A stretch of 64,000 nt of DNA from Azolla caroliniana (taxonomy: Eukaryota > Plantae > Polypodiophyta). The DNA lies in assembly GCA_043228905.1 (NCBI GenBank), contig JBHGNT010000006.1, forward strand, positions 17,918,001 through 17,982,000. The letters are read 5' to 3'. The notes below the pieces were generated by a model. It was not told the DNA's origin. It saw nothing but the letters and a program-made list of their open reading frames with translations, and searched no databases. Both the position numbers and the translations under genes were made by a program. Below, piece after piece: positions 21,115 to 61,156 of the stretch (positions within the stretch are counted from its first letter, which is position 1; every line of letters begins with the position of its first letter).

Positions 21115-21701
21115 TGACAGGAATATGCGAAATAATCTTCAGACATAACTGAGAGTTAGGTCACTTTAATGATAATCAAACACAGAAAGATGAGAAATGG
21201 AAGTAAGTACACAAAACAGAAGAGGATGCACAAGATGTTAACATGGAAAACCCTAAACGGGAAAAAACCACGGGAGTCCACAAACTCCAACTCTAACTAT
21301 GCAAAGAGAATACAACAGGGGAACACAGAGGCAACGACCTCGTGCTCACAATCTTCACCTAATGGCGGTTACAAACAGAGACTCACTCTGTCTCTCTATC
21401 TCTCTCTGGTACGCTCTATATAACAATTACACCAAAACATAAAATCTATACAAAATAAGGACAACACTATAATACTGTTTGCCCTAGGTCATATTTATAC
21501 TAATATAACTTTTGGTCTATTTACAAATATAGCCCCTTTGGGCTCTCTGGAACAAATTTACATATATGTCCCTTCATCCGGTGAGAGGTTCTCACCGGGC
21601 CTGCAACATCCGGTTCTCACCGGGCCTTCATAATCCAGTTCTCACCGGGCCTTCCTTTGCTGGGTACTCATATCCCATCCGGAGGGACCAAAATCCTAAC
21701 A
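21115..21701 (-). repeat. 3' LTR of Tork/Tnt1-like copia (family D, copy 1)
   Basis: Adjacent to PPT complement aactcccccttc; shares GTGGAAAACCC and CATCCGGAGGGAC motifs with other D LTRs. Confidence 0.85.
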
Positions 21702-27700: not shown

Positions 27701-28557
27701 TCCTGGGGTGTCGTTACTGCTGCGATAGTTCGTATGCGCACTGTAACCCCCTTCTGAATCCGATTCCAGCGCTGAAAATGCTTCAGATTCGCCGTCTCTT
27801 CCGGCCAAGGCCTAGAGAAGGGTTTCCACTTCCAGAAGGTTGCTTAAGCTGCTTCCTTCGTCTGGGTAAGTGTTTTGTTGCAGACGGAGGAGCGACTCCT
27901 CCGCCACTTTCCGGGTCACTTTGGAATATGATTGATCCGTTCGGATTTCTTCCGCTGCTTGCTGGAAAGCCTCTCGCCGCCGTCTCCATTCAGCAAGTCT
28001 TCATGCTCTCTCCGTAACCGGGTCGTCTATTGGCCTAGTCATCCATTCCTGCTGCTGTTCACTGCGATTATGCAGGAATCGTGGTCGCCAAAAATTGTGT
28101 TATTGCTAGGGCCGGACAGCAGCCTAACACAGGCTGTCCACTTAAGACACTTTACCAAAGGGTGGTACGGTAGAATGATTTACGACACAACGCTTAATTA
28201 GACCTTAATTGGTTACTTAGCAATCCGTAATTAACACGCGTAAGATATAACAATGAATACAGAACGGTAATCAACACTGGAAGATTAAGACAATAAGCTT
28301 TATTAATTATCCGCACCTGATTACATTGTAACTGGGCCTTTATATAGGTCTGCGGTGCGAAATACAAAACGGTGCCAACCGACACCTTTACGGGATCGTT
28401 ACGGATCCGGATCGGCATACCGATTCCGGTCCGTCCGTCCACATCTTCTTATATATTAATATATATATTAAGACTACTAATTATAATAGTTCCCGAATAA
28501 CTATTCCTTTCACACTTTGGTTTGGACCTCCTTAAGCCTTCTTGCCGGCCGGTAACA
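24766..28557 (-). mobile_element. Second G1 copy, internally deleted (LTR-gag-PR fused to ORF3 start)
   Basis: Reverse-complement homology to 4840-7896 and 11452-12185; RT, RH and INT absent; LTR at 28096-28557. Confidence 0.9.
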
Positions 28558-32445: not shown

Positions 32446-35190
32446 CTACTCCGCGGATTCTCCGGCTTTGTTCCGTCCGGTGGGGAATGGGTTAGGTGGC
32501 GTAGGTCCCAGGTAAGGTTTAAGGCGAAACCCATTCACCTTTTGTCGTAGCACTTCCCTGGGCAAGGTGCCAAGTTGAAACGTGCCCTGTTCCTCTCCCA
32601 CTATCCAATACAGGCCTGTCCAGCGGAATCGTAATTTTCCTGGCATTTCCCCCATCCGTGTTTGAAACACTAATACTGCTCTCCCCACCGTAAAATCCTT
32701 TTCACGCGCATGCCGATGTCGGTCCATGAATGCTTTGCGCCGCCACTGTTCTTGCTCCAATATGGCCATACTGCAGACCCTTGTTTCGCCTAGTTCTAGC
32801 AGTTGTTATAGCCGTATTAATTCGGATTTTCCCTCTGGCAGCCGGGCTCGTACTTGAATCTGCAGACAGGGTACCTGGAATTCGACTGGCATCACGGCCT
32901 CCAGCCCAAATGCTAGCCTGAAAGGAATGGATTGTATATTGTTCTTATAGCTGGTTCGATACGCCCATAATGCGCTGTGCAATTTGGTATCCCAATCTGT
33001 TCTGTTTTCATTGACTATCTTTTTGAGGATAGTTTGTAATGTTTTGTTCGTGGATTCGGCCAAGCCATTTGCCTGTGGGTAGTATGACGTACTCTTTTTA
33101 TGAACCACAACGTAGTGTTGGGTCAACTCGTTGATGACCTTGTTCAGAAAGTGACTCCCTTGATCACTAATGAGCTCGATAGGGCAGCCGAAACGACACC
33201 AGATATGTTCGTAAAGGAATTTCGCCGTGACTGCCGCGGTATTCTCGCGTAGTGGTTTTGCTTCTACCCACTTGGTGCAGTAATCCGTGGCCACTAGGAT
33301 ATACTTATTGCCTGTTCGAGCAGCTGCCATGGTAAAGGGTCCCACAAAATCAAGCCCCCACTTTTGGATCCAGTGGCAACACCGGTTGATGTGGCATTCT
33401 CACGACTTTCGTGGGCTGGCCCAATCATTGGCATAAATCACACTATCTGCAATATTCATACGCATCCTTTTGCATAGTCGGCCACCAAAGTCCTGTGTGC
33501 CAGATTTTCCGGGCCGTAACATCGCCCGCGTAATGTCCTCCCGTTGTACCACAATGGGCTTCACGTAAAACCGCAACCTCCAAATGTCGTCATTGCCTTT
33601 GTGGTATAGGATGTCTTCGACTAAACAGAAATTCTGACTCCGTACGGCCAACCGTTTTTTCTCGTCCGTCCTTAATTGGGGTGGTTGTAACCTCGTGGTC
33701 AAGAAGTAGGTCATTTCCATCAACCACCGATCCGGAAAAGTCTTTTCTGTTCGTTCTGCTAGTGTTGCTATACGTAGAATGTCCGCATCCGGAAAGTCGT
33801 CGTCATCTTTTTGCGTCCTTTCTCCATTATCTAGTCTACTCAAGAAATCTACCACCACGTGTTGCATACCTGGTCGGTGCTGAATTACAAAGTCAAATTC
33901 TTGGAGCAGTAGCATCCATCTAGCCAATTTTCCCGTCAGTGTCTGTTTCCCTACCAGATATAGCAATACTATATGATCCACGTGAAACGTGAATTTCCAC
34001 CCTAGCAGATAATGCCGGAATTTATTGATGTTGTATATCATACCCAACGCTTCACAATCCGTTGTGGAATAGTTACGCTTAGCCATTGATAGTTTCCGAC
34101 TAGCATAGTACACTAGTCGGTACCAATTCGTCTCAAGAGCTGCATCAACACACTACCTATTGCTATCTTCGAGGCATCCACGAACACGTGAAATGGTTTC
34201 GCCCAAACTGGTGACCTTGTACGACTAGTGCTTGCGTTAACATTATTTTTAGCGCATCATATGCCTTCTCTTCCGTTGTTGTCCATTTGAAAGGAGTACG
34301 GTGAACGACGGCATGTAATGGTGTGGCGAAATCCGCCAAATAGCGTATCATCTGGCTGTGCCATCATATTTGTCCCAAAAACCGGCTGAGTGCTTTCACG
34401 TTTGTCGGTGTTTTTGCGTGAGTAATCACGGAGATTTAGTTCGGATCGACCGTTATCCCCTCCTTACTGACGATGTGGCCGAGGAGAGCCCTGTTGGTGA
34501 CGCCGAAGGCGCATTTGGCGGGATTCAAGCTTAAGTGTGCAGTTTGGCAACGCTCCAGGCAAAGCTGTAGATGTGTAAAATGGTCGGCTGTTGTCCCATA
34601 TACCGCAAAATTGTCTAAAAAGACCTGCATGAAGGCTAGTATATATTCCCCAAAAATCTCCGTGATTGTCCATTGCAATGTAGCCAATGCCGTCTTTAGC
34701 TCGAACATCATGACGACCCCGACCTAGACTCCCAGTGCGTGGCAAACACCGTCTTCTCTTGGTCGTCGGGGTGCATGCGTACCTGTAGATGTGTAAAATT
34801 GTCGGATGTTGTCCCATATACCGCAAAATCGTCTAAAAAGTTGTAGATGTGTAAAATAGTCGGCTGCTGTCCCATATACCGCCAAAATCGTCTAAAAAGA
34901 CCTACATGAAGGCAGGTATATATTCCCCAAAAATCTCCGTGATTGTCCCTTGCAATCTAGCCAACGCCGTCTTTAGCTCGAACATCATGACGACCGTGAC
35001 ATAGACTCCCAGTCCGTGACAAACGCCGTCTTCTCTTCGTCGTCGGGGTGCATGCGTACTTGATTGTAGCCACTGAAGCCATCTAAAAAGTTGTACATGT
35101 CATGCCCTGCGACGACATCCAGTATGCTGTCGGTGAACGGTAAAGGGAATGCGTCGGTAATGGTTACGACGTTCAATTTCCGGTAATCCG
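32446..35190 (-). pseudogene. G2 RT-RNase H-integrase, degenerate
   Basis: FLDGFSGYNQV, YYASRKL, ATDYCTKWVEA, GKLRFRWTG. Confidence 0.92.
34568..35060. repeat. Local tandem duplication inside G2 RT
   Basis: Segment beginning gtagatgtgtaaaat occurs at about 34568, 34785 and 34843; about 215 bp is repeated. Confidence 0.75.
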
Positions 35191-35191
35191 T

Positions 35192-38100
35192 CTTCTACAG
35201 CCTCGAGTGCCACGAAACAGCTCCCCCTGCATATGTCATTACATACCCGGATGTAGACCGGATGGTATCCACATCAGCCGAAATATCCGAATCGGAAAAA
35301 CTGTCAACTTGAGGTTTACCGGAACCGAATCGGAGACACATATTCGAAGTGCCCTTCAATTACCGGAGTATCCATTTGACCGCATTCTAGTGCTCATAAA
35401 CCGGCTCACCACTCCGACTACGTATCCAATATCAGGTCAAGTACACACCATTGCGTACATTAAGCTCCCGACGGTACATGCATATGGAACCTTCATCATA
35501 TCCGCCTTCTCTGCTTTCATCTTCGGGCTTTGCTTACCAGATAATTTGCAGTTTTCCGGGAGTGTCGATCTGAACGGTTTCGCCTCTAACATGTTGAACC
35601 GTGGAAGCACCTTTGTCACATATTTCTCTTGTGACAACCACAATTGCTTCTTTGACCGGTCCCGGATGATGTGCATCCCAAGTATCTGTCTTGCCGGGCC
35701 CAAGTCTTTCATTGCGAAGGTTCGATTCAGAGCCTTCTTAAGCATCCGTATTTTGGCTTGGTCCCGTCCGACGATCAACATGTCGTCCACATACAAAAGG
35801 AGTATCAGGAAGTCACCTCCTTCGAACTTCTTCACAAACACGCAGTGATCGGTTTGCATTTTGTGATACCCTTGGTCGGTCATGAAGGAGTCAAACTTCC
35901 GGTACCATTGTCGGAGAGCCTGCTTCAGTCTGTACATGCTCTTCTTCAAGTGGCAAACCAGGTGCTCCTTCCCTTTCTCCACGAATCCTTCCGGTTGCTG
36001 CATGTAGATCTCCTCTTCGAGGTCACCGTGAAGGAATGTCGTCTTCACGTCCAACTGCTCTACCTCGAGGTCCATGCTTGCCGCTATACTCAGCACCATC
36101 CGGATGGAGGTCATCTTTATTACCGGGGCAAATATCTCGTCGAAGTCCACGCCCTTCTTCTGTTGGAACCCCTTGACGGGAACTCAGCGCTCCTTATGTC
36201 CAACACTCGACCGCAACCAAGATTCTTTTCATACACAGAAAAACAGGAAACAAAATGCACGCGACACAAAGGAGAGAAAAGGGTACACAGAATGTTTACG
36301 TGGAAAACCCAAAGAGGGAAAAACCACGGCAGCCCAAAGGCTGCAAACTATCACTATATTGGAATGTACAAACAATGAGTTCACGAAGGCAACGACCTCG
36401 TGCTCACGATCTTCGCCACAGGTGGCGGTTACAACAGAGGCAACGACCTCATTCACTCTCTCTCTCAACCTGTACATTGTTACACGCTCTCACTTCTTGC
36501 ACCAACAAGAAAATGACAACAACAATAACTACATCCTAAAACTCTGCCCTAAGTCATATTTATACTAATATAACTTTTCGGCTATTTACAAAAATAGCCT
36601 CGATGGGCTCTCAGAAACATATTTACGAATATGTCTCTTCCTCCGGTTCTCACCGGGTCTGCGTCATCCGGCTCTCCGTAGCCGGGTGCTCCTCATCCGG
36701 TTCATACCGGGTCTGCACCATCCGGCTCTCCGTAGCCAGGTACTCCTCTTCCGGTTCTCACCAGGTCTGCACCATCCGGCTCTCCGTAGCCGGGTACTCC
36801 TCTTCCGGTTCTCATCGGGCCTGTATCATCCGGCTCTCCGTAGCAGGGTCCAACTCATACGGATTCGGCCTCGACCTATCGGCCTCGGCCGAGTTTGTTC
36901 GTCGGCAATATTCTTCTCCCTTCCCATCCGGAGGGACTTGTCTCCCAACACCCCTTCACCAGGATCCTGGCTTTGTATCTCGGGGGGTTGCCGGCATCTC
37001 CCGGTTTCAACTTGTACACCCACTTAATTCGGAGTGCCCACTTTTCTTTCGGCAACTCCACCAATTCGTACGTATGGTTCTCATGCAGGGTTTAGGTGTG
37101 ACTGCATGTGACTTGGTGTCCACTTGACACCCATCAGTATGCACCAACTCCAATGGTGCATTACATCTCATCGGTGGCCTCGATCGGAAGGAGGTCCGGT
37201 TTTGCTTTCCGGCCAAACAATCAATGCACTTCTCCAAGTGCACGTTCTTCACTGGAATGAGGTTGTCATCTGCAAGCCTCTTCATCCCCTTCTCGCTCAT
37301 GTGCACAACCTCTTTTGCCACAGCTCACCGGCAGAGTCGGTTGCCACGTTCACTTCCTCCGAACATTACCGGGCATTCATCAGGTATAGTGTGTTTACCT
37401 TCCGGGCCTGAGCCACAATCATGCTCCCTTTGCTGAACTTCATAACACCGTTCCAGATGCTACCTGTGTAGCCTTCATCATCTAGCTCACCGGTTGATAT
37501 CAGGTTCAGACGAACCTCCGGAACGTGTCAGACATCCTTCAGCATTAGCTTGCATCTGGTTGGTGTTGCCAACCACACCTCTCGTATGCTGACAATCCGG
37601 CATGTACCTTCATTCCCCATCCGGACACAACTGTGATCACCAGTTGAGTAGGATGAGAAGCATTTCTGGTCCGGGGTAAGGTGGAACGACGCTCCGGAGT
37701 CGACCACCTAGGTCATCTCGTCGCCGGCAAGGTATATCTCACTCTCCTCGATGATGATCATCAACTCTTCTTCACTTTCCGCGATTGCCATCGTTCCCTT
37801 CTGGTCCGGCCCCCTCCGGTCTTTACCATTCCGGTCCGGTGTTCGCTTCGGATCGGTACCGTCGATTTCCTTGTCTTTTCGGAAATGCCAACAGTTCTTC
37901 TGGAAGTGTCCCGGCTTGCCGCAATAGCAACAAGTAGGCCTCCCCCTTGACTTTGACCGTGTCCCCGACTTTTCCCGGTTCTGGGGGCTACGGTTCCTTT
38001 GTCTTCCACGTTCCGATTCGGTAAGGAGCACTTTGGAGTCGGAGCTCGTATCCTTATCTTTCCGACGCGCCTCCTCATCTAGCAAGCTCGACTTCACTCT

Positions 38101-39198
38101 TGCTAGGGATAACCGTTTCCCTTCCGGCCCAGTGTTGACCAAAGTGACGACCAACGTCTCCCAGCTATCTGGGAGGAAACCGAGCAGGAATACTGCTAGT
38201 ACCTCATCGGCGAGAAGTACTTCTAATGATGTTGCTTGGTGGATCAGCCCTTGCAAGGAATTCATGTGCTCCGCCATGCTAGAGCCATCTTGGTACTAGA
38301 GTCTTACTAGCTTCCGAAATACCGAAACCAGATTAACAACATTTTTGTTCTGAAACATAATATCGATCTTCTCCCAGAGCTCATGAGCCTTGCTCTCTTC
38401 ATTGAAGTTATTGTATAGACTCATGTCGATGAAGCACCATATGTACGCCGTTGTCTTCATGTGCATCACATCCCATATCGTGGCATCGATTTTGTTCGGT
38501 CTCTTGTCCCGGAACTGAACTGGCAACCAAAGATCTTAAACCATGAGCATGTCCCTCATCTTCGACTTCCACACTGAATAGTTGGAGCCTGTGAGCTTGA
38601 ACATGTCTCCCAACGAATCGTCCATTGTTCTGTGTCGATTCGCTTTGATACCACTTGCCAGGAATATACGCGGAATAATCTCCGGCCACAATTGAAGCGT
38701 AGATCACTTGATAACAATCGAACACAAAAGAAATGGGAATGGAGTTAAGTACACGAACAAAAAAAAAGGGGAATACACAGGATGTTAACGTGGAAAACCC
38801 CGAGAGGGAAGAGAAAAACCACGGGAGCCCACAGACTCCAAACTATCACTATGCCAATGATTACAGCAGGGAGCATAGAGGCAATGACCTCTTGCTCACG
38901 ATCTTCACCTGGCAGTAGTTACAACATTGACATGCTATGTATCGCTCTCTCTGTCTCTCTCTGTACAGTTGTTACACCAAAATTACACACACTACTAAGT
39001 TTGCCCTAGGTCATATTTATACTAATATGACTTTCGCCTATTTACAAAATATAGCCCCAGTGGGCTCTCTGGAACATATTTACATATATGTCCCTTCATC
39101 CGACGAGAGGTTCTCACCGGGCCTGCATCATCCGGTTCTCACCGGGTCTTCCGATGCCGGGCCTGCGTATCCCATCCGGAGGGACCGAGATCCTAACA
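35192..39198 (-). mobile_element. copia D copy 2, deleted internally and at the 3' end; 5' LTR 38656-39198, PBS 38642-38653
   Basis: gag MDDSLGDMFKLTGSNY, zinc knuckle, VDSGAS protease, RT; PBS TGGTATCAAAGC. Confidence 0.9.
36174..36950 (-). mobile_element. Solo LTR (D-related) with four 54-bp repeats
   Basis: TG...CA ends and perfect TSD CCCCT/CCCCT; host RT resumes on both sides. Confidence 0.92.
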
Positions 39199-39392
39199 TC
39201 CATACACGTATTTTGCCATTTTTCTTTGGTACGACTACTATTGGGCTTAGCCATGTAGCTTGTTTGACTGGTCGAATGAATCTGGCCTAGAGGAGTTTGT
39301 CAATTTCTTCTTTTACGCGAGCCGCGTAATTTGGGTTCATGCGGTATCGACGCTCTTGGACCGGTTTTGCATCGGTTGCTAAATTGATCTTA
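38575..39392. repeat. 818-bp direct duplication, left copy
   Basis: Matches 44042-44859 at constant offset 5467; two mismatches noticed by eye. Confidence 0.95.
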
Positions 39393-39488
39393 CTAGGACC
39401 AAATGGTCGAAACAAGGAGTGCGTAGAGATAGGCACAAGACGATTAGAGGGTGCTTAAGCTAAACAAGAGAAAGTAGGCAACATACAC

Positions 39489-39491
<3 letters not shown>

Positions 39492-39544
<53 letters not shown>
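39492..39544. repeat. (GA)n microsatellite; a second one lies at about 39736-39760
   Basis: Direct read; the two tracts flank the hammerhead motif. Confidence 0.95.
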
Positions 39545-39546
<2 letters not shown>

Positions 39547-39567
39547 TTTTTAATTCAAAGAGGGTGG

Positions 39568-39622
39568 TGGTCTTAGGCAAACTAGTTTCGCTCAATAGTG
39601 GAGCTCTTCAGTGCAAAGACCA
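39568..39622 (-). ncRNA. Minimal type I hammerhead ribozyme
   Basis: Minus strand reads UGGUCUU-U-GCA CUGAAGA GCUC-CACUAUU-GAGC GAAA CUAG UU UGC-CU-AAGACCA: full core, stem II, palindromic short stem III, bulged stem I. Confidence 0.85.
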
Positions 39623-39864
39623 TTACAACAAGAGAATGTGATTTATAAAGGGGTGGGAAGGAAGAGGGAGTGAGAGAAAAAGGAGTGGGGAGGATTTGAT
39701 TTGTGTAGTAGATGAGAGAGAATAGAATGTGGTGATGAGAGAGAGAGAGAGAGAGAGAGATGTGTGTAGGAAAGTGATAGGGAATGAGAGAAGGGAAATT
39801 AGTATAATGATGATGGTGAGGGGGGAGTTTTTAATGTGATGAAAAAGGGGGATTTGGGATAATA

Positions 39865-40077
39865 TTAAGTGGGGGATGTGGGTGAAATATTTGAAAACTT
39901 AGTGTTAAGTGGGGGATTTGGGGGATTTGGGTGGATTGTTTGAAACTTTAGTCTTAAGTGGGGGATTTGGGTGGATTGTTTGAAAATTTAGTCTTAAGTG
40001 GGGGATTTTGGTGGATTGTTTGAAAACTTAGTTTTAAGTGGGGGATTTTGGTGGATTTTTTGAAAACTTAGTCTTAA
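39865..40077. repeat. Five copies of a ~40-bp unit containing the RT C-terminus and stop codon
   Basis: ttaagtgggggatt...gaaaacttagt units start at about 39865, 39905, 39954, 39994 and 40034. Confidence 0.9.
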
Positions 40078-42019
40078 CTAGGAGGGCATGTAAGGACTTA
40101 GATTTTGTCCAACATACGAAAGGGCGTGAGATGCTTGTAAGCTCGGGATCTAACATTAAGTCATTATAGAGATTTTTTAGAAAACTATGAATGCCTAGTT
40201 TTGGGGTATGTTTGGTGTATCTAAGTTTAAAGATTGTGGGGTTAAGGGAAGTAATAGTTTTGGGTTGATATAGGAGTGTTTTTCTAAGACTAAAAGGTAT
40301 TTTCTTATAGCTTTTTAGTATAAAGGATGGAGGGTAACCACGGTTAACTAGTCTATTGAAAAAGAGTTTTTTCATTTGGTAGAAACCTAATGGGGTGCTT
40401 TCTCTAATAAGATATCTCTTCACTTCATTAGTGATAAAGTGTTGTTTCGTATGGGAAGGATGATCCGATGAAAAAGGCAAGTATTGGTATGAATTGAGAG
40501 GTTTTTGAAAACAATTGAATAAGAAAGATGAATTTTCGAGGTTGATCCATATGTCTAAAAAAGGTAGCCGAAAGGGGGAAGTTTGAATGGTAAGCTTGAT
40601 GGAGTTATTTGTGTGTGAAGGGTAAAAGTCGAGATATTCTAAAAGTTGAGATTTGGTGCCTGTCCAGACCCCAAATGCATCATCAATATAGCGGGTGAAG
40701 TAGAAGAGATGGGGGGGCGATGGTTGTAAGTTTTCGAGATATACTAAAAAGAGGCATGCATATACGACTGAAAAGTTGCTACCCATGGCCGTACCTTTTA
40801 TTTGTTGGTAAACTACGTCATCGAAAGTGAGATAGTGATATTCTAAAATAAGGGCACTAAGGGTATAGATGAGATTTGTTTTCGAAGGGGAAAAGTGGGG
40901 GGTGATTAGACTACGTAGGGCTTGGAGTCCTAACTTAGGGGGGATACTAGGATAGAGAGATTCAACGTCAAACGTGAATAAGAAACTATTAGATGGTGGG
41001 TGTAGGTTTTCTAGTGATTGGATTAGTGTGTGAGAGTCTTTTAGATATTGTGGTTGGAGAAGGAGGATTGGTAAAAGTTGGTGGTGTAACCACTTCGATG
41101 TTTGTTCAAATAAGGAGTTATTATATGAACAAATGGGCCGGAAACCTATAGGTGTTTTGTGTAATTTAGGGAGGAAATAGAGGTTGGATACTTGATATCC
41201 TTTTTTGGGTTTGTGGAGGATGAAATTAGCTTCAATTGGGGAAAGTGTACCTAAGTGGTTTGTTATTATGTTATTAAGGCGGTATAGTAACTCTTCCAAG
41301 GGGAAGTGGCTGACTCTCTTATAGGTGGTAGAATTCGAGAGGTGTTCTATGGCTTTGGTGTAGTATGTGTCTTTATCTAGAACACATACTCCCATATTTT
41401 TATCGGCTGGGAGGATGATAATGTGTTTGTTGTGTTGGAGGCTTTTAAAGGCTCTAGAGAGGTGGTATGGGATTCTAGTGTTTATGGGCTTAGTGTTGTG
41501 TGCTATTTGGTTAAGGATGTGTTGGTGTTTTAATATTATGGAGACTAGGGGTGGATATTCTGTGGGTGGCATCCAACTAGGGTTAGGTAGTTTGAAGGGG
41601 TTGAGAGGAAGTGAAGGTGTATTTCTAAAAAAATGTTTTAGCTTGAGGGATCTCGAGAGGTGGGTGAATTCTTTTAGGATATTGTTGGGTGAGGGAGGTG
41701 GGGATGGTAGGATATACTTAAGGCCTAGGTTTAGCAATTGTGTTTCATTTTTAGTGAGGTTATGTTTAGAGAGGTTATGGATTTTACTATGAATTACTTG
41801 TGTACTAGTAAGAGGTTTCCAGAAGTTGGTTCTAGGTTTTTTATTTCGGGATTTGGGGTGTGAAAGGAAGGGAAATAGTTTCTGTTTTCCCCCAAACCAC
41901 ATATATGTGTCTTGGGTGGAGGGGGATCTATTAAGTAGGTAGAATAAACGTTTGCTAGGGTGTACGACGTGTCTAAACCGTTTGTTAACGCGTTTAGTAC
42001 GCCTAGCTAACCGTTTTTT
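40034..42019 (-). CDS. Penelope-like reverse transcriptase, intact, no endonuclease (frame open from 42019, first ATG at 41902)
   Basis: NLS..L...E..LL.LGL, PADKNMG, LPKLHK..RPI, FDVESLYPSI, QIKGTAMGS, RYIDD, FLD, KP...YL...S.HP, RGYP; ends where a GIY-YIG domain would begin. Confidence 0.92.
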   Translation of the reverse strand, partial: KKRLARRTKRVNKRFRHVVHPSKRLFYLLNRSPSTQDTYMWFGGKQKLFPFLSHPKSRNKKPRTNFWKPLTSTQVIHSKIHNLSKHNLTKNETQLLNLGLKYILPSPPPSPNNILKEFTHLSRSLKLKHFFRNTPSLPLNPFKLPNPSWMPPTEYPPLVSIILKHQHILNQIAHNTKPINTRIPYHLSRAFKSLQHNKHIIILPADKNMGVCVLDKDTYYTKAIEHLSNSTTYKRVSHFPLEELLYRLNNIITNHLGTLSPIEANFILHKPKKGYQVSNLYFLPKLHKTPIGFRPICSYNNSLFEQTSKWLHHQLLPILLLQPQYLKDSHTLIQSLENLHPPSNSFLFTFDVESLYPSIPPKLGLQALRSLITPHFSPSKTNLIYTLSALILEYHYLTFDDVVYQQIKGTAMGSNFSVVYACLFLVYLENLQPSPPHLFYFTRYIDDAFGVWTGTKSQLLEYLDFYPSHTNNSIKLTIQTSPFRLPFLDIWINLENSSFLFNCFQKPLNSYQYLPFSSDHPSHTKQHFITNEVKRYLIRESTPLGFYQMKKLFFNRLVNRGYPPSFILKSYKKIPFSLRKTLLYQPKTITSLNPTIFKLRYTKHTPKLGIHSFLKNLYNDLMLDPELTSISRPFVCWTKSKSLHALLVKTKFSKNPPKSPT
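41954..42019 (-). promoter_or_regulatory. Putative -1 programmed ribosomal frameshift signal
   Basis: CCA_AAA_AAC_GGU_UAG, 5-nt spacer, then hairpin GCUAGG/CCUAGC, GUAC/GUAC, UAAAC/GUUUA, CGUU/AACG; the -1 frame is the RT frame. Confidence 0.75.
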
Positions 42020-44041
42020 GGTCTACTAGGTTGTGGGTCTCCTAGTGGTTTTGGGGGAGGACAAGGTTTTGATGTATTTTGATAGTGTTTATAGTTTTTA
42101 TGTGAGGGAGTGTTAGAAGAAAAGTTGGGGGTTTTTGTGTTAGGAAGAAAGGGGGTGTGAGAATAAAAGTTGGGGGTTTTTTTATTAGGAAGAAAGGGGG
42201 GGGGGGTTAGTGTAATATGGAGGATGTGTAGGGGGGAGATGAGTTGAATATGGAGGATGTGTTGGGGGGGAATGATAAGTATAATGAGAGTGATGTGGGC
42301 TAATTAAAGGGGTATGGGTAGGGTAAGGATTTGAAAAAAGGTGGGGAAGGGCATTATGAAAATTAGATGATAATGGGGGAGGTGTAGAGTGATAAATGGA
42401 AGAAAATTGTGGGGGGTTTGAATGGAATTCTTCAACATAAGGGGGGTGGGTAGAGTAAGAATTAGACAAAAAGGGGGAGGGGGTATCCATGTAATATTTA
42501 GAAAGTAGAAAGGGGAAAGGGGGTAGGAGGAGGAGGATGGGGGAACGAGTGAGAGAAAGAGGGAGGGGGGGGGGGAGGAGGAGGAGGAGGGAGTTGTTTG
42601 TACAGAGAGGTTGCGTGGGGGGAGAGAGGAGTGGGGAAGATTAGGGTTACGTAGGTGGGAGACATTGTTTTCTTCATAATACATGTGTGGGGTTGGGAGG
42701 AGAGGGGGCATGTATCCATGACGGCTGCCTTATGCAGTCCCGTGCATCATGCCATGGAGGGGGGGTTGTAGATCTATAGGCCGGCTGTCATACACAGTCC
42801 GGAGCCTTACATTGGAGGGGGAGAACGGGTACGTATGATGGTTTCCGTTTCCATTTCCATAGATATGGTCGTTACCGGGTCGAAGATGGAGTGGCGGCCA
42901 TGCTTGTAATTGTGAATGGTACCGGTCGCGTTGGCGTTCGTTGTGAGTGGGTGGCTGGTTCCTGTCGAATGTCGGTACTGGAGTATGTGGATCCGACATA
43001 TATGGTGGATGGTGTCCGGCGTTGATTGTGGTATAGGGATGTGAGGGAAGTTTATTTTGGTTAATAAATGTAACCCTCGGGCCATTAAGGTTAAAGGGGG
43101 GGACGAAGTTCTTACTGACTTCGTTTGTGGCTATATTGCAGGTAAATCGGGGGAGGGAGTGATGATTGGTTGGTCGGAGAGGCTTTTGTTGCAAGGGTTT
43201 AGGGTTAGGTTTATGGTTGGGTTTATGGTTGGGTTTATGGTTGGTGTTATTTTTAGGGTTAGGCTTATGGTTGGTGTTATTTTTAGGGTTATTGTTAGGG
43301 TTATTGTTAGGGTTAGTAATAGGGTTGGTTTTAAGCTTATGATTAGTATTAGGATGTATCTTTTTAGGACCAAATGGTCGGACATGCACATCACTGTTAT
43401 GTTTAGCACTACTAGTGTTATCGAGAGTTGTAAAGTGTGATAGACTGTTATAATAATCTTCATAGTCATTCTCTTCACTCATCTCTATATCTATTTTTCT
43501 AATGTTTAACTTCTTTGACGTATCTGCAATACTTATGTGTGTTTTTTCTAAGAGTTCATTGTTTGTGAGTGATTTTTCTTTATATTTAGTAGCATTTAAA
43601 TGTATGGCAGTTTCGATTGTGTGATTCATTGCAAAATCATCACATGCTTGTAAAATTTCCATAGCAAAGGTTTGTTGCCATAATGCTAAGGTTTCTTTAA
43701 AAGTATTACTATTAGTATTCGAAGATATTGATTGCAAATATAAGGGCTCTTGAATGACTTCAGCGATCTTACTTATATCTAATATAACTTTATTAGGAAA
43801 ATCATCCAAGTCTTTAGCATAGCTATGAGCGAGTAAGTCTAGATGTTTAATATAACATCGGGTTAGTTCTTTATTATATTGTTTAGTGATAGTATTAAAC
43901 TCATTATGCATACTAATATTTAACTCCTCATGTTCTATATTCAAGTTAGGTGGTTTGGTTCTTAAGCTAGGAGGTGTAAGATCGTGTTCATTTAGATTTA
44001 AAATACGAGTATAAGTAGTTTTGGTTTTCTTAGAGCGCCGA
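42007..44041 (-). pseudogene. PLE ORF1 (helical N-terminal part, Asn/Pro/His-rich C-terminal part), 5'-truncated and disrupted
   Basis: Open 44041-42733, in-frame TAA at 42730, continues as MPPLL; frame changes at or near G11 runs at about 42570 and 42200; last segment ends PSRPKNG*. Confidence 0.7.
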
Positions 44042-44859
44042 TGAATAGTTGGAGCCTGTGAGCTTGAACATGTCTCCCAACGAATCGTCCATTGTTCTGT
44101 GTCGATTCGCTTTGATACCACTTGCCAGGAATATACGCGGAATAATCTCCGGCCACAATTGAAGCGTAGATCACTTGATAACAATCGAACACAAAAGAAA
44201 TGGGAATGGAGTTAAGTACACGAACAAAAAAAAAGGGGAATACACAGGATGTTAACGTGGAAAACCCCGAGAGGGAAGAAAAAAACCACGGGAGCCCACA
44301 GACTCCAAACTATCACTATGCCAATGATTACAGCAGGGAGCATAGAGGCAATGACCTCTTGCTCACGATCTTCACCTGGCAGTAGTTACAACATTGACAT
44401 GCTATGTATCGCTCTCTCTGTCTCTCTCTGTACAGTTGTTACACCAAAATTACACACACTACTAAGTTTGCCCTAGGTCATATTTATACTAATATGACTT
44501 TCGCCTATTTACAAAATATAGCCCCAGTGGGCTCTCTGGAACATATTTACATATATGTCCCTTCATCCGACGAGAGGTTCTCACCGGGCCTGCATCATCC
44601 GGTTCTCACCGGGTCTTCCGATGCCGGGCCTGCGTATCCCATCCGGAGGGACCGAGATCCTAACATCCATACACGTATTTTGCCATTTTTCTTTGGTACG
44701 ACTACTATTGGGCTTAGCCATGTAGCTTGTTTGACTGGTCGAATGAATCTGGCCTAGAGGAGTTTGTCAATTGCTTCTTTTACGCGAGCCGCGTAATTTG
44801 GGTTCATGCGGTATCGACGCTCTTGGACCGGTTTTGCATCGGTTGCTAAATTGATCTTA
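44042..44859. repeat. 818-bp direct duplication, right copy (contains D LTR 44123-44665)
   Basis: Matches 38575-39392; native G2 pol continues to its right. Confidence 0.95.
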
Positions 44860-46844
44860 TGTTGATAGAACTTTGGATCTAATCCCTTCATGTCCTTGTG
44901 GGACCAAGAGAACACATCTTTGTACTCCCTGAGTAGTGCTATCATCGTGTCTCTTTGATCCGGCAATAATTCTTTTGCGATGGAGAGGAATCAGGGGTCT
45001 GATGTTGTACCCATGTTTACTTCTTCTAGGGCTAAGGCAGTGACTCGTTGTGAAATTTCCATTTCCCTCTCAAACACCACCCGTGCTCTACATAGTTCTA
45101 AAATTGACTTTGGGTCTAGTTCGTAAGCCTCATCGTGGAGCGCAGTGGGTGTGGCGTACTCCGCCGCGGTTTCTATGACATCGATTTCGAATAGCGGAAT
45201 GATCCGAGGGTGCTCGTTTAGGTATACTTCTAATTCTGTATCATCCACCCCAACCAACATATTTATATCTTCCGTGTATAACGGTGTTATGCCCTTGGGT
45301 TGTGCTGCCATTTCCTCTGTAGGTATGCGAACCTTGGTGCGCCCACGTCGAAAGCTGATGGACTTATGTTGCCAGCTCTGTTTGATATTCGCTAAATGAA
45401 GCCACGGTCTGCCAAGCAGCATAGGATATGCTCCTAGGGCGTCGAGGGTGAGGACTACCACCGAGATGTCGAAGTGATGTCCGCCAACGAGAATGCCTAA
45501 TTTTCGTATTAAGCCAAAACGGGCAAGCTTCCCATTCTGAAATTCCCAATTGTTCGCATGTCTTCACGCTAATTACATTGACACTAGAGCCGTCGTCGAT
45601 TATGCATGCTGTGATTTCCTGACCATGTAATATCAACGTAATAGCCGGATTATGGTGATCCACCACCGTTGGTCCGACGCTGGTGGAGACGGTTACCCAT
45701 TATGCGATCCTCCACGGCCTGGCGGAACTGTGGGACTAGTTGAAGTAACTTCTCCATGGTTAGTGTTATCTTGCAGCCTGCGAGTGATTGCCATATGGGA
45801 TCCGGAGATTTTACATGTCCCTCCAAACGCCCCACATTGTTCACGGACTCCTGCCGCTTGCGTTCCGCATTTGCCGCGTTCGCTTTTTTGACCCATGCTT
45901 GGGCCGTCTGACGTATCTCATCTTGCGCGGCCCAATCAACATTTTTTGTTTGCTGCCGTGTCGTATTGACAACATGCGCCTTGCCCTTGTGTAGTGGACA
46001 TTGCGTGGCATAATGTCCGGGTTGTTGGCAAACAAAACAATGGACGCTAGATTTGCCTTTCTCGGCAACTGGTGGTGTGTTCTGATCCCTAGGTGTGACT
46101 TGTTCCTCCCGGTCTTGGTTTGTTCTTTTGAGCATTCGCAGTGCTTGTTATTGGTCCCGGCGCGGCTCCTGGTGCCGGTCATCGTCCGAACTTTCGTTGT
46201 ACCGCCGTTGGTCCCGATATTGACGATGTTTCCCGCGAGGCCCATTGAAGCCGCCATGTTTGTTCGTCGAACGGTAATTATCGTAGCGTCGGCCTCCTTT
46301 ATGATACCTGTGGTTGCCTCGGTAGTCCTCGTCCTCTGGCTCTTCTTCCTCGGAATCGTTGGTATTCCGGCAATTCTGGTAGTGCCTGTCATTGGGTGGG
46401 TTCCGATCCGTATACCGGGGTCGTTCTTCTTGGCGCCTTTGCTCATTCCGGTGAGGTGGGCGCTGTGTTTCCACGCTTCGTACTGTGAGCGTGGATCTAT
46501 TCAACATATTGTACTCACACTGCTCGACTGTGTGTGCTTTCAAGTGACAGATTGGGCAGTGGATTCGCATGTTTCATTCCACTACGGAATGCCCAGAATT
46601 GAGGCAAATCATGCACTGGATTGCCTAGCGAAAATGTCGTTCCTCATCCTAAGGTAACGCTTGTCGTAATGAGGACATGGAAAACCTTTCCTCTTCTTCA
46701 TCTAGCTCGAGTTGTAGCGCTCGTTCTATGACCATATCGGCTATTTCTCCTTTCACGCTGTTGTTGTTGAGTGTCGTCCATATCGGTCGTCGTAAAGCTG
46801 CCAAAAATGTCTCCCGAGCCTCGTCCTCGATGGTATGTGTTTGA

Positions 46845-51874: not shown

Positions 51875-54800
51875 ATGTGATGCTGCCGAAAATCCTCAAG
51901 TGTGCCAAGTTCACCTTCTTTCCGTAATACAACTCGTGTGGTGACACTCCTCCATTAGTAGAGGTCTGATTGTGCAAGTAAACAACTGTCCTTACGGCTT
52001 CAGCCCAGTAAAATTTTGGCATATCCTTCTCTTCAAGCATTCCTCTGGTGGCTTCTTCGATCGTTCGATTCATCCGTTCGGCTACGTCGTTCTGCTTTGG
52101 CGTATATCTACACGAGAATTCGCATTGAATTCCCTCCTTCTATAGATAACTCGTGAACTGGTTGGACAAGTACTCCTTCCTGCCATCGGACCGTACACAC
52201 TTGATCTTTCGTCTAGTTTCCTTTTCCGCAAGACTCTTCACCTTTAGGAACCATGTGAAGACTTTGCTCTTTTTCGTGATCAAGCACGCCCAGGTATGCC
52301 GAGTGAAGTCATTGATGAAGGTTACGAAGTAATGGCTTCCACTGAGACTCACGTTCTTTGCCGGTCCCCACACATATGAATGGATCAAATCCAGTAGATT
52401 TCGACTACGATTACGCTCATTGGGGAATAGAAGTCGATGCTGCTTCCCGAGTTGGCAGGCTTCGCAGACTTGGTCATTACGGCCTCGAAATTTCAGCAAA
52501 CCGAAAACAATGTTCTTCATCTCCATTTCAAGAAACCGTGGGAAGTTAATGTGGCGAAACCTTTTGTCCTTTCGCGAACAACGCGGTTCTGGCTTGATTG
52601 GTATTGAGGATAAACATCCTCCCTTCTTGGCGTCCTTGCGCGATAACTTGACTTTCCTCTTCGATGTAGCACCCAAGGTGCGTGAATCGAAATTTCATCC
52701 CTTGGTCAACAATTTGACCGACCAACACCAAGTTCTTGGTTATTTTCGGGACGTGCAACACATTCATAAGTTTCCCTTTCTGCCCGACATGGCTGAGAAG
52801 AACTTCTCCGACATGTTTGATGGTATGCAGAGTATCGTCTCCCGTTTTGACCACTCCTTGTTTTTCCGGTTTCTCCAAGTACAAGAACCATTCTTCATGA
52901 CTCGTCACATGATTTGACGGTCCGGAATCAACATACCACACTGCGCTTAATTTCGAGGTGTTCACGGCGAACAAATTGGCCTTGTGCTTTATCATGAAGG
53001 CTGGGCCCGATCCATTTCCAGCTCGTACGGAGCCCTCAACGTAGTGCGATTTCTGACACCTTTCCACGTCTCTTCTGCTCGACTCGGTTTTGTCTAAATT
53101 GGCTCTCTTCTTTCAACACTTGCTCTCCCTGTGGCCTTTCTTGCCACAATACCAGCATTCTATCGCGGCATTCTTTTGCCGGCTTCCGGCGCTGCTATTA
53201 CTCCCCCTACTCCGGAGGGTTCGGAATTGCTTCCGGCATTTCGATTATGCCGCACATTCGGCTCTTTTCGGCCACCTCCATTGCACCCCGATCCGCTTGT
53301 CCGCCACGACTACGGGCCTATCTTCCTTCGTGTATAGCATCTTTCTGTCGATGTGCGTACTCGTTGACGCACCCACGTGATTTTCCTCCGAGAGCAACAT
53401 CGATTGAAGCTCGAAGAACAAACGCGTAATCTCCCTTGTGCCAGACCGTTTAGTTCATCCTCTCGGCCAGACCGTTTAGTTCCGGCATCTTTGGCACGGT
53501 AAATTCCCTTCGAGCGAAAGTACTCCTCGAACTACCCCGGTATTCACCTCCATTATCTGCTCGAACCGCCTTCAGCTTCCGGCCGGTTTCTCTTTCCACT
53601 CTCACGTGGAGCTCTTTGAACACGGATAACCCCTTATCCTTCGTCTTCAACGGTGTGGCCCACAACTTCCGGCTGTGGTCATCTATGAACGTCACGAAGT
53701 ACTGCGATCCTACATGTGACTTGGTGTCCACTTGACACACATCAGTATGCAGCAATTCCAATGGTGCATTACGTCTCATCGGTGGCCTCGATCGGAAGGA
53801 GGTTCGGTTTTGCTTTCCGGCCAAACAATCAGTGCACTTCTCCAAGTGCACGTTCTTCACTGGAATGAGGTTGTCGTCTGCAAGCCTCTTCATCCCCTTC
53901 TCGCTCATGTGCACAACCTCTTTTGCCACAGCTCACCGGCAGTGTCGGATGGCACGTTCACTTCCTCCGGACATAACCGGGCATTCATCAGGTAAAATGT
54001 GTTTACCTTCCGGGCCTGAGCCACAATCAGGCTCCCTTTGCTGAACCTCATAACACCGTTCCGGATGCTACCTGTGTAGCCTTCATCATCTAGCCGACCA
54101 GCTGATATTAGGTTCAGACGAACCTCCGGAACGTGTCAGACATCCTTCAGCAGCAGCTTGCATCCGGTTGGTGTTGTCAACCACACGTCTCCTATGCCGA
54201 CAACCCCGGCATGTACCTTCATTCCCCATCCGAACACAGCCGTGATCACCGGCTGAGTAGGATGAGAAGCATTTCCGGTCCGGGGTAAGGTGGAACGACG
54301 CTCCTGAGTCGACCACCCAGATCATCTCGTCGCCAACAAGGTTTATCTCACTCTCCTCGGTGATGAGCATCAACTCCTCTTCACTTGCCGCGATTGCCGT
54401 TGTTCCCTTCCGGTCTGGCCCCCTCCGATCTTTACCGTTCCGGTCCGGTGTCCGCTTCGGATCGGTACCAACGGTTTCCTTGTCTTTTCGGAAATGCCGA
54501 CAGTTCTTCTGGAAGTGTCCCGGCTTGCCGCAATAGAAGCTAGTAGGCCTCCCCCTTGACTTTGACCGAGTCCCCGACATTTCCCGGTTCTCGGGGCTAC
54601 GGTTCCTTTGTCTTCCGCGTTCCAATTCGGTAAGGAGCGCTTTGGAGTCGGAGCTCATATCCTTATCTTTCCGACGCGCCTCCTCATCTGGCAAGCTCGA
54701 CTTCACTCTTTCTAGGGATAACCGTTTCCCTTGCGGCCCGGCGTTGCCCAAGGTGACAACCAACGTCTCCCAGCTATCTGGGAGGGAACCGAGCAGGAGT

Positions 54801-55549
54801 AGTGCTAGTACCTCATCGGCAAGAGGTACTTCCAATGATGTTGCCTGGTGAATCAGCCCCTGGAAGGCATTCATGTGCTCTGCCATGCTGGAGCCATCTT
54901 GGTACTAGAGTCTTACTAGCTTCCAAAATACTGAAACCTGATTGACAACATTTTTGTTCTGAAACATAATGCCGATCTTCTCCCAGAGCTCATGAGCCTT
55001 GCTCTCTTCATTGAAGTTGTTGTATAGACTCATGTCGATGAAGCACTGTATGTAAGCCGTTGTCTTCATGTGCATCACCTCCCATATCGCGGCGTCGATT
55101 GTGTCCGGTCTCTTGTCCTCAAACTGAACCGGCAGCCAAAGGTCTTTAACCATGAGCTTGTCCCTCATCTTCGACTTCCACACCAAATAGTTGGAGCCGG
55201 TGAGCTTGAACATGCCTCCCAATGAATCGTCCATTTTTCTATGTTGCCTTGCTCTGATACCACTTTGACAGGAATGCACGCACCCTTCCGCCACAGCCGG
55301 CCACAGTCGAGTCTAAAATCGAAACACAGAAAAAAAACGGATAATGAATGCACGACACAGAGGAGACAAAAGAGTAGACAAGATCTTTACGTGGAAAACC
55401 CAAACTAGGGAAAAACCACGGCAGCCCACAAGACTGTAAACTATCACTATATCACAAAGATTACAACAGTGAGCTCACAGAGGCAATGACCTCGTGTTCA
55501 GGATCTTCGCCATAGGCGGCGGTTACAACAGAGGCAACGACCTCTTCGT

Positions 55550-56466
55550 TGAGGAGAACTCAACGCTCCTTATGTGCAATGCTCGGCCACAACCGAGCTT
55601 AAAATCATACACAGAAAACGAGAATGAATGCACGACACAAGAAGAGACGAGTACACAGGATGTTTACGTGGAAAACCCAAAGAAGGAAAAACCACGGCAG
55701 CCCACAGGCTGCAAACTATCACTATGCTAGAATGTACAATAATGAGTTCACGGAGGCAACGACCTCGTGCTCACGAGCCTCGCCACAAGCGGAGGTTACA
55801 ACAGAGGCAACGACCTCTTTCTCTCTCTCTCTCTGTACACTGTTACGCGCTCTCTCTATTCTTGCACCAACAAGAATGACAACTACAAGTTTGCCCTAAG
55901 TCATATTTATACTAATATGACTTTTCGGCTATTTACAAATATAGCCTCGATGGACTCTCAGAAACATATTTACGAATATGTCTCTTCATTCGGTGAGCAT
56001 TCCTCACCGGGTGTGCACCATCCGGCTCTCCGTAGCCGGGTACTCCTCATCCGGTCTTCACCGGGTTTGCACCATCCGGCTCTCTGTAGCCGGGTACTCC
56101 TCATCCGGTCTTCACCAGGTCTGCACCATCCGGCTCTCTGTAGCCGGGTACTCCTCATCCGGTCTTCACCGGGTCTGCACCATCCGGCTTTCTGTAGCCG
56201 GGTACTCCTCATCCGGTCTTCACCGGGTCTGCACCATCCGGCTCTCTGTAGCCGGTTACTCCTCATCCGGTCTTCATCGGGTCTGCACCATCCGACTCTC
56301 CGTAGCCGGGTACTCCTCATCCGGTCTTCACCGGGTCTGCACCATCCGGCTCTCCGTAGTCGGGTACTCCTCATCCGGTTCCAGCCTCGGCCTATCGGCC
56401 TCGGCTGAGTTTGCTTATCAGCATTGTTCTTCTCCCTTCCCATCCGGAGGGACCTATCTCCCAACA
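55550..56466 (-). mobile_element. Solo LTR nested inside a related LTR
   Basis: TG...CA ends, TSD TTCGT/TTCAT; same family as 36174-36950. Confidence 0.85.
56001..56378. repeat. Seven copies of a CCGG-rich 54-bp tandem repeat
   Basis: 18-aa periodicity in three overlapping ORFs (SSPGLHHPALCSRVLLIR x7). Confidence 0.92.
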
Positions 56467-60769: not shown

Positions 60770-61156
60770 CTGCTCACCTCACTCCCTCTAAGTGGGAAAA
60801 ACAGAAAAATATGAGCAGCAACTTTTCAGCAACTCCAAACAGTTTGCCCTAAGTCATATTTATACACATATGACTTTCGGGCTATTTACAAATATAGCCT
60901 CAAGGGCCCTTGGCAAACATATTCACAAATATGTCCCCGCATCCGGATCTCTCTCCGGGTACATACATCATCCGGCTCCGTAGCCGGGTCTTCATCATCC
61001 GGCTCCGTAGCCGGGTCTTCGTCATCCGGCTTCATGCCGGGTACTCTTCATCCGGCTCCATGCCGGGTACTCTTCATCCTCCGGTTCCGTAACCGCAACC
61101 GGGCTTGCCGTCATTCATCTCCGGACATCCCATCCGGAGGGACCGATATCCCAACA
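60476..61156 (-). repeat. 3' LTR of copia D copy 4
   Basis: TGTTG...CAACA next to PPT complement aactcccccttc; an older degenerate D-like LTR remnant lies at about 60240-60440. Confidence 0.85.

What the first reader, a model, noticed from the sequence alone, without database searches (positions are those of the whole stretch)
38575..44859. 818-bp target-site-like duplication around an endonuclease-less retroelement
Seen: the layout is X-D-PLE-D-Y. D spans the copia gag start, PBS, a whole LTR and 194 bp of unrelated gypsy pol. Native copia continues left of copy 1 and native gypsy continues right of copy 2, and only two mismatches were noticed. Established: retroelement TSDs are usually a few to tens of bp, and EN-less PLEs are best known at chromosome ends. 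Inference: recent internal integration primed by a top-strand 3' end at 39392 with the second break 818 nt away, as at a replication fork, long staggered break or re-replicated gap. That would be an integration route that duplicates host DNA.
Basis: partly seen in the sequence, partly recalled or inferred. Interest (0 to 1): 0.88.

Follow-up and report, generated by a model that had tools for sequence, protein, structure and literature searches.

The report
Nuclease-less retroelement inside 818-bp duplication
A plant jumping gene that carries no DNA-cutting enzyme sits between two near-identical 818-base copies of the DNA it landed in, likely because its RNA was copied onto one end of an existing chromosome break whose repair also doubled the neighbouring DNA, which would show how such elements reach the inside of chromosomes.

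Summary
Observation confirmed. 38575-39392 and 44042-44859 match over 818 bp with 2 substitutions; copia gag runs on across the left edge and gypsy pol across the right edge. Between them lies a 5'-truncated, two-ORF Penelope-like element with no GIY-YIG domain, a hammerhead motif and an RT in an endonuclease-less land-plant clade. New here: the element's 3' end shares 6 bp with the target, at the same end point as another copy, and the 5' joint is a truncation with 1 bp of overlap. Both joints look biological, so misassembly is unlikely, but no read or contig seen spans them. Best reading: cDNA primed on a pre-existing break, with host repair making the duplication. A family-wide route is not shown: 0 of 2 testable related contigs carry any duplication (a weak, biased test). 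Duplications of this size are published for Dualen LINEs, which have endonucleases. Unchecked notes of this scan report 137-880-bp cases for endonuclease-less elements on other DNA. New variant of a known kind; interest 0.5.

The parts
37102..38574 (-). X: native continuation of the copia element (gag, with stop codons) left of D1
   Evidence: Matches 53710-55530 at 88% across the D1 edge; Pfam Retrotran_gag_2 E 5e-12; frame continuous across the edge
38575..39392 (.). D1: first copy of the 818-bp duplication (gag start, PBS 38642-38653, LTR 38656-39198, gypsy pol 39199-39392)
39387..39392 (+). 6-bp microhomology shared by the target and the 3' end of the element; inferred priming site
   Evidence: Contigs of other copies align from 39387 in X1, X3, X9 and leave loose ends there in X4, X9; L004 ends at the same base; D2 carries the same 6 bp natively
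39387..44042 (-). 5'-truncated endonuclease-less Penelope-like element (4649 bp without the two shared ends)
39387..39590 (-). pseudo-LTR region: the 3'-terminal ~200 bp, repeated at the 5' side of related full-length copies
   Evidence: L003 5905-6111 and L002 1-65 match it upstream of ORF1
39569..39621 (-). type I hammerhead motif (CUGAnGA, 4-bp helix II, GAAA, short palindromic helix III); cleavage predicted near 39580
   Evidence: Pattern match in the window and in L001, L002, L004; all 15 named pairs kept in 3 distinct sequences, no covariation; not found by Rfam
39865..40077 (.). 40-bp tandem repeat at the end of ORF2 and in the 3' UTR
40034..42022 (-). ORF2: intact PLE reverse transcriptase (DKN motif, RT core, thumb), ending where endonuclease-bearing relatives begin their linker and GIY-YIG domain
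42013..42019 (-). A_AAA_AAC heptamer in the ORF1/ORF2 overlap, in the frame of a -1 shift, followed by a predicted stem-loop
   Evidence: Same heptamer in L002; fold -17.9 kcal/mol, no shuffle control
42007..44041 (-). Remainder of ORF1 (806-811 residues in relatives); lacks about the first 130 codons and has a stop at 42730-42732 that four runs and the relatives do not have
43196..43331 (+). Degenerate telomere-like repeats inside ORF1 (C-rich on the RNA strand)
43358..43380 (+). Internal copy (21 of 23 bases) of the element's 3'-terminal motif, inside ORF1
44042..44859 (.). D2: second copy of the duplication (PBS 44109-44120, LTR 44123-44665); its first base is the 1-bp overlap with the truncated element
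44860..45563 (-). Y: native continuation of the gypsy element (protease region upstream of RT) right of D2
   Evidence: Frame continuous across the edge; homologue 8298-8530 aligns across it

Best explanation
An endonuclease-less Penelope-like element lies between two 818-bp copies of its target, and it likely got there by copying its RNA onto one end of a break that it did not make, while host repair likely doubled the target on the other end. Shown: the layout, the lack of a nuclease domain, a 6-bp match between the element's 3' end and the target, and a 5' truncation with a 1-bp overlap. Inferred steps: (1) a break formed at 39392 and exposed a top-strand 3' tail; (2) the RNA's 3' end paired with the last 6 bases of that tail and the RT made 4.65 kb of cDNA, telomerase-style, stopping about 400 nt short of the 5' end of the element body; (3) the other end gained the 818 bases, most likely by invading the sister chromatid and copying leftwards before it let go (an aborted recombination repair, as at a broken fork), or because two distant nicks were filled in; (4) the two 3' ends were joined through one base by end joining, which also primed second-strand synthesis. 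The duplication is then a tandem duplication of the repair kind with a retroelement as filler, and its length is set by the break, not by the element.
For: No GIY-YIG: a profile built from endonuclease-bearing hits found 40 of 123 proteins at E 2e-8 or better and no frame of the window or of L001-L004 better than E 1.5; the six 480-811-residue ORF1 sequences scored at most 2.4 bits. L002 holds a complete unit between two pseudo-LTRs, so the nuclease was not lost by this copy's truncation. 3' joint: same end point as L004 and as contigs in 4 of 4 runs laid; the 6-mer occurs 22 times on both strands of the window, 1.7e-4 per site. In the sister subfamily the 3' joint of L002 also sits in an imperfect match to the element's last bases (read by eye). 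5' joint: contigs of X3, X4, X9 match to 44042 and run on for 267, 444 and 140 other letters; relatives continue about 400 bp to the upstream pseudo-LTR. Same age is possible: 10 substitutions private to this copy among the 40 rows shown of 406 predict about 4.2 differences between D1 and D2; 2 are seen, P 0.21. The one difference that can be polarised is derived in D2, the copy that step 3 makes new. Known chemistry: priming of EN-less PLEs by RNA-DNA homology at exposed ends (PMC13159263, passages; PMC8557442 section 3); tandem duplications from over-extended recombination closed by Pol theta with microhomology, mean 2.7 bp in Arabidopsis (PMC13031629, passages), and from paired nicks (PMC5730883, passages).
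Against: One insertion only. No displayed contig bridges either joint or the LTR|gypsy joint in the 4 runs laid (tables were cut and contigs drop links between repeats). No empty allele was seen. The repair duplications in the paper read are far larger in plants (median about 200 kb in a mutant, and very rare in wild type), and the paired-nick experiments used 46-nt overhangs, so neither precedent matches 818 bp. 0 of 2 related contigs with both flanks carry a duplication, so long duplications are not obligatory. The second D1/D2 difference could not be polarised.
Confidence: 0.58

Rival explanations
1. Element-driven copy-back. After priming at 39392 the RT, or a host polymerase taking over the cDNA end, jumped from the RNA to bottom-strand DNA 818 nt upstream (exposed at a fork or on the sister), or to a read-through copia transcript, and copied D until it rejoined the chromosome. 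Long duplications would then be a regular product of this family.
For: Gives the same layout and also makes D2 the new copy. Template jumps are proposed for Penelope elements (PMC3846280, passages). Unchecked notes report 137-, 252- and 880-bp duplications around other EN-less elements.
Against: Only 1 bp of homology at the jump and none beside it. 0 of 2 testable relatives show a duplication.
Confidence: 0.17
2. Two steps.
For: Produces the same joints; local template switches with 0-2 bp homology are common in repair (own knowledge).
Against: 5' truncation is usual for this family: contig depth is several-fold higher over the RT than over 43524-43951 in 3 of 4 runs and about twofold in X9 (not a copy number), and L001 and L004 are truncated too. 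It needs a second rare event at the same place.
Confidence: 0.1
3. A nuclease supplied in trans (from a LINE or an endonuclease-bearing PLE) made two nicks 818 nt apart, as proposed for Dualen LINEs.
For: Dualen-4b insertions leave such duplications (PMC9977147, passages). Both 3' joints of this subfamily (window, L004) have the same base next to the 6-mer (2 of 2, could be chance).
Against: No nuclease in the element; priming used base pairing rather than a cut-site motif; no partner was looked for because no genome is held.
Confidence: 0.08
4. Assembly artefact: the assembler wrote D twice around the element.
For: D is repeat DNA in a nest of LTR elements; none of the 4 runs laid shows the joints, and the best run holds only 0.60 of the sampled words.
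Against: Both joints have the marks of real insertion ends (natural 3' end with 6 bp shared; truncation with 1 bp shared). Merging a filled and an empty haplotype cannot create the element|D2 joint. D1 and D2 differ by two substitutions and no indel, one of which changes a conserved RT residue in D2 only.
Confidence: 0.05

Closest known systems
EN-minus PLEs of the Coprina type, including Selaginella and conifer EN(-) PLEs (PMC8557442 sections 3 and 12 read; PMC9033089, PMC13159263, PMC4209133 passages)
   Same: RT without GIY-YIG, pseudo-LTRs with a type I hammerhead, an upstream ORF with a likely frameshift, C-rich telomere-like repeats on the RNA strand, priming by pairing with an exposed DNA end. 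The RT groups with Selaginella and Cryptomeria proteins.
   Different: This copy is internal, in an LTR nest without telomere arrays. It paired through 6 non-telomeric bases, its telomere-like repeats lie in ORF1 and not at the 3' end, and it is closed on the far side by an 818-bp duplication.
Dualen-4b_cRei LINE of Chlamydomonas (PMC9977147, passages)
   Same: Non-LTR insertion flanked on both sides by a duplication of hundreds of bases (median 900 bp).
   Different: Dualen encodes two endonucleases, to which the authors tentatively ascribe the duplications; this element encodes none.
R9 rDNA retrotransposons of rotifers (cited in PMC9977147; original not read)
   Same: Unusually long target duplication (126 bp).
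   Different: Site-specific, fixed length, nuclease-made; far shorter.
EN-less PLE-X families of Chara and Selaginella (PMC8557442, passages)
   Same: Green-lineage PLEs that reach internal sites with no identified endonuclease; the authors leave the mechanism open.
   Different: PLE-X belong to the Chlamys group with a CxC motif; P0001 shows no CxC before its DKN motif (read). No long duplication is described in the passages read.
Repair-made tandem duplications closed by Pol theta or NHEJ (PMC13031629, PMC5730883, passages)
   Same: A segment doubled head to tail with 0-3 bp of microhomology at the new joint, sometimes with inserted sequence.
   Different: Here the insert is 4.65 kb of retroelement cDNA and one joint is an RT priming site; sizes in those papers are tens of bases or tens to hundreds of kilobases.

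Membership tests
Penelope-like elements | RT of the PLE clade with N-terminal motifs, DKG/DKN motif and thumb | tested here: met
   Motifs visible in P0001; 169 homologues, among them GIY-YIG-bearing RTs. Pfam itself gave no family for P0001 and the PDB no match.
Penelope-like elements | Pseudo-LTRs from partial tandem structure | tested here: met
   The 3'-terminal ~200 bp recur upstream of ORF1 in L002 and L003; the loose end in X4 is that tandem joint. The window copy has lost the upstream one.
Penelope-like elements | Hammerhead motif in the pseudo-LTR | tested here: met
   Core and three helices in the window and 3 of 4 loci (the 5' pseudo-LTR of L003 begins inside it). No covariation, missed by Rfam, activity untested.
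EN-minus PLEs (Coprina type) | No GIY-YIG endonuclease in the complete unit | tested here: met
   Profile search negative on six frames of the window and L001-L004, with 40 of 123 proteins as positives; ORF1 negative.
EN-minus PLEs (Coprina type) | RT falls in the Coprina clade | tested here: inconclusive
   FastTree on 66 rows puts P0001 in a 32-member EN-less clade (support 1.0) with 1 Selaginella and 5 Cryptomeria proteins, but no named Coprina reference was in the tree.
EN-minus PLEs (Coprina type) | Attachment to telomeric overhangs through reverse-complement telomeric repeats near the 3' end | tested here: not met
   No telomere array in the window; 3 of 3 3' flanks seen in loci (L002, L003, L004) are non-telomeric. 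Short-read contigs under-sample telomeres, so other copies may be terminal.
Chlamys / Naiad / PLE-X | CxC motif before the RT, with or without an N-terminal GIY-YIG | tested here: not met
   No CxC upstream of DKN in P0001 (read by eye); no EN in ORF1.
True target-site duplication | One copy of D in the empty allele | not testable with these tools
   No genome held; only short contigs available. Indirect support: both host frames run on across the outer edges.
True target-site duplication | Recurs around other copies of the family | tested here: inconclusive
   0 of 2 contigs with both flanks (L003, L004); 2 more loci had one flank only. Short-read contigs tend to break at long duplications and may join different copies.
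LTR retrotransposition product (LARD-like) | Unit bounded exactly by the two LTRs, with a polypurine tract before the 3' LTR | tested here: not met
   The repeat runs 81 bp past one LTR end and 194 bp past the other; the purine tract seen at 21701 and 61156 is absent at 39198.

The most novel reading that the evidence does not exclude
Land-plant EN-less Penelope-like elements routinely enter chromosome interiors by catching long-lived 3' ends of repair or fork intermediates through a few bases of pairing, and so leave target duplications of hundreds of bases. Each insertion would record the geometry of a natural break, copy host DNA (here a whole LTR with its primer site, now flanking the element on both sides), and be erasable without trace by recombination between the two copies, so that such insertions are under-counted.
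Probability: 0.3. Interest if true: 0.75.

Novelty: new variant of a known kind. Interest (0 to 1): 0.5.

Why it matters
How PLEs without a nuclease reach internal sites is stated as open in PMC8557442 (passage). This insertion gives both joints at base resolution and points to a testable answer: pairing of the RNA end with a pre-existing 3' DNA end, with host repair fixing the far side. If long duplications prove common, these elements duplicate host DNA on insertion and mark natural breaks in plant genomes. If not, this is a clean single case of a repair-made duplication with a retroelement filler. The size alone is not new, since Dualen LINEs do it.

Tried and rejected
No whole genome is held, so family copies in this assembly could not be collected; the record behind L004 is not searchable. 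Related loci: none in viral contigs or in prokaryote genome contigs. No RNA holder listed, so nothing is said on expression. Absence of joint-bridging contigs in those runs is not taken as absence of the insertion. Rfam gave only two chance matches and no hammerhead. Pfam gave no family for P0001, P0002, P0124, P0127; the PDB sequence search was empty; the Atlas gave one hit at 0.76 for the ORF1 core, a lead of no weight. The first tree did not finish; the FastTree run used 65 of the 120 listed hits plus P0001. I first read the loose end of X4 at 39387 as a genomic flank; it is the element's own tandem joint, so it is not counted as an insertion site, and the two X9 loose ends are a mixed consensus that I could not resolve. 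The plus-strand hairpin at 39397-39408 looks like half a hammerhead but lacks the CUGAnGA core and was rejected as a ribozyme. An LTR-retrotransposition origin and a circle-integration origin were rejected: the first on boundaries, the second because it needs the same joints to exist beforehand. Two papers that may bear on internal EN-less insertions were not held (Arkhipova 2017; Lin 2016); supplements of the papers cited were not read.
Full report
Observation. The duplication is real in the window: 38575-39392 and 44042-44859 match over 818 bp with two substitutions and no gap, and identity ends sharply on both sides. It is the only non-tandem direct repeat of 150 bp or more at 94% or better in the window. 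D contains the copia gag start, a PBS, a whole LTR (38656-39198) and 194 bp of gypsy pol. The copia frame runs on to the left of D1 and the gypsy protease-RT frame to the right of D2, and both are backed by other copies in the window that align across the edges. So the pre-insertion state was most simply X-D-Y, a copia element already inserted in a gypsy element; both hosts carry stop codons.

The insert. It is a minus-strand Penelope-like element. ORF2 (40034-42022) is an intact RT frame. Its homologue search gave 169 hits, 120 listed. A profile of GIY-YIG domains from those hits found 40 of 123 proteins at E 2e-8 or better but no frame of the window or of the four related loci better than E 1.5. 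A FastTree tree of 66 rows places it in a 32-member clade (support 1.0) in which no member has the domain and whose named members are one Selaginella and five Cryptomeria proteins (55 listed hits left out, some members partial, no named Coprina reference). A pattern scan of metagenome contigs gave 4 loci, all of this family: L004 at 98% and L001-L003 at 85-91% DNA identity. They show the full unit: pseudo-LTR, an ORF1 of 806-811 residues, a short overlap with an A_AAA_AAC heptamer in the -1 frame, ORF2, a 3' UTR with a type I hammerhead motif, pseudo-LTR. The host is a land plant by these neighbours; earlier notes of this scan call it a fern, which I did not test.

The two joints. At the 3' end, contigs of other copies align from 39387, not 39393 (pieces in X1, X3, X9; loose ends in X4, X9), and L004 joins a different, non-telomeric flank at the same base. 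The last 6 bases of D are therefore also the last 6 bases of the element. That 6-mer occurs at 1.7e-4 per site in the window, so chance is unlikely even if the end may slide by some bases. At the 5' end, contigs of X3, X4 and X9 match to 44042 and continue for 267, 444 and 140 letters of other sequence; relatives have about 400 bp more body there. The window copy is truncated and shares one base with the start of D2, with no further homology.

Age and assembly. Among the 40 difference rows shown of 406, 10 sites in the element differ from all four runs at about full depth; 6 of the 10 are C-to-T-type changes in the window and one is a stop in ORF1. That rate predicts about 4.2 differences between D1 and D2; 2 are seen (P 0.21), so one event of modest age fits, though the private sites may partly come from the donor copy. 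At 39306/44773 the gypsy homologue and the conserved RT motif side with D1, so D2 carries the derived base; the other site could not be polarised. No displayed contig bridges either joint or the LTR|gypsy joint; the tables were cut and contigs drop links between high-copy repeats, so this neither supports nor refutes. Misassembly is unlikely because both joints have the marks of insertion ends and merging a filled with an empty haplotype cannot make the element|D2 joint. The window has no telomere array, and the notes index places another note 3.7 Mb before it on the same piece, so the site is internal at least on that side.

Mechanism. With no nuclease, the element needed an existing 3' end. 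The 6-bp match says the top strand ending at 39392 paired with the RNA end and primed cDNA, as proposed for EN-less PLEs at telomeres (PMC13159263, passages; PMC8557442 section 3). The 818 bases are best read as the work of host repair on the other end. Over-extended recombination closed by Pol theta gives tandem duplications with short microhomology in worms and Arabidopsis (PMC13031629, passages), and paired nicks give them in mammalian cells and plants (PMC5730883, passages); neither paper shows this size class. I put 0.58 on this class of event, with aborted sister-copying as the favoured sub-route because it makes D2 the new copy and supplies the primer for second-strand synthesis. Rivals are a jump of the cDNA end to upstream DNA (0.17), two steps (0.10), a nuclease in trans (0.08) and misassembly (0.05).

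Is it a family trait? Not shown. Of 4 loci, 2 have both flanks. Neither L003 (flanks 995 and 1442 bp) nor L004 (752 and 377 bp) has a direct repeat of 6 bp or more at the joints, while the same test recovers the window's duplication, and their flanks show no match to each other. The test is weak: short-read contigs tend to break at long duplications and can join different copies, and L003 is cut short within its 3' UTR. None of the three 3' flanks seen in loci is telomeric; that of L003 is the start of a homeodomain gene. So internal insertion recurs in the family, while long duplication is seen once.

Comparison with what is known. It works like a Coprina-type EN-less PLE and meets the tests for PLE, hammerhead and lack of EN, but not the telomere attachment; formal placement in Coprina is untested. 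EN(-) PLEs are listed for Selaginella and conifers (PMC9033089, passages), with type I hammerheads in Selaginella (PMC4209133, passages). Endonuclease-bearing Penelope copies have 8-10-bp duplications or microhomology joints (PMC3846280, passages). Duplications with a median of 900 bp flank more than half of new Dualen-4b insertions, and R9 makes 126 bp (PMC9977147, passages). I found no paper describing a long duplication around an EN-less PLE in the searches (listings; passages read only in the papers named), but two key papers were not held. Unchecked notes of this scan describe 137-, 252- and 880-bp cases in other genomes; they are leads, not support, and my reading was on record before I saw them.

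Verdict. Observation confirmed; interpretation partly supported. New variant of a known kind: a long duplication of the Dualen size around an element with no nuclease, with both joints resolved. Interest 0.5; 0.75 if a family survey shows it is regular (probability 0.3).

Noticed in passing
window 38656-44665: The duplication leaves the truncated element between two near-identical copia LTRs in its own sense, with a PBS after the upstream one. The upstream LTR could drive transcription of the element, and recombination between D1 and D2 would remove it cleanly. No polypurine tract precedes the downstream LTR.
   Followed up: partly
window 43358-43380 and 39387-39409: The 3'-terminal 23-base motif with a small hairpin recurs inside ORF1 (21 of 23 bases). 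The internal copy is conserved in L001-L003, whose own 3' ends have drifted from it. It may be a second priming site or a trace of recombination.
   Followed up: partly
L003 5905-6111 (element 5' side): The upstream pseudo-LTR of L003 begins 11 bases before the predicted hammerhead cut, whereas the 3' ends of the window copy and L004 lie about 190 bases past it, so the downstream ribozyme was not cut in those templates.
   Followed up: partly
L003 1-1442: A 3'-shortened copy of the sister subfamily abuts the 5' region of a homeodomain gene (Pfam E 1e-10); the contig may be chimeric.
   Followed up: partly
window 42013-42019: Slippery heptamer and downstream stem-loop in the ORF1/ORF2 overlap suggest an ORF1-RT fusion of about 1470 residues by -1 frameshift.
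   Followed up: partly
L001 5335-5815: A ~270-bp tandem repeat of the 3' UTR including the hammerhead region, which could allow the dimeric form of the ribozyme.
   Followed up: no
window 36635-36849, 56004-56379, 60955-61095: Copia LTRs of the same group as the one in D carry expanding 25-54-bp tandem arrays, up to 7 copies of 54 bp.
   Followed up: no
window 5492-7896 and 25490-27902: Two gypsy-like stretches in inverted orientation at 90-92% identity; ordinary nested copies as far as seen.
   Followed up: no
window 34561-35059: A 277-bp unit repeated 1.8 times at 91%, possibly another small tandem duplication.
   Followed up: no
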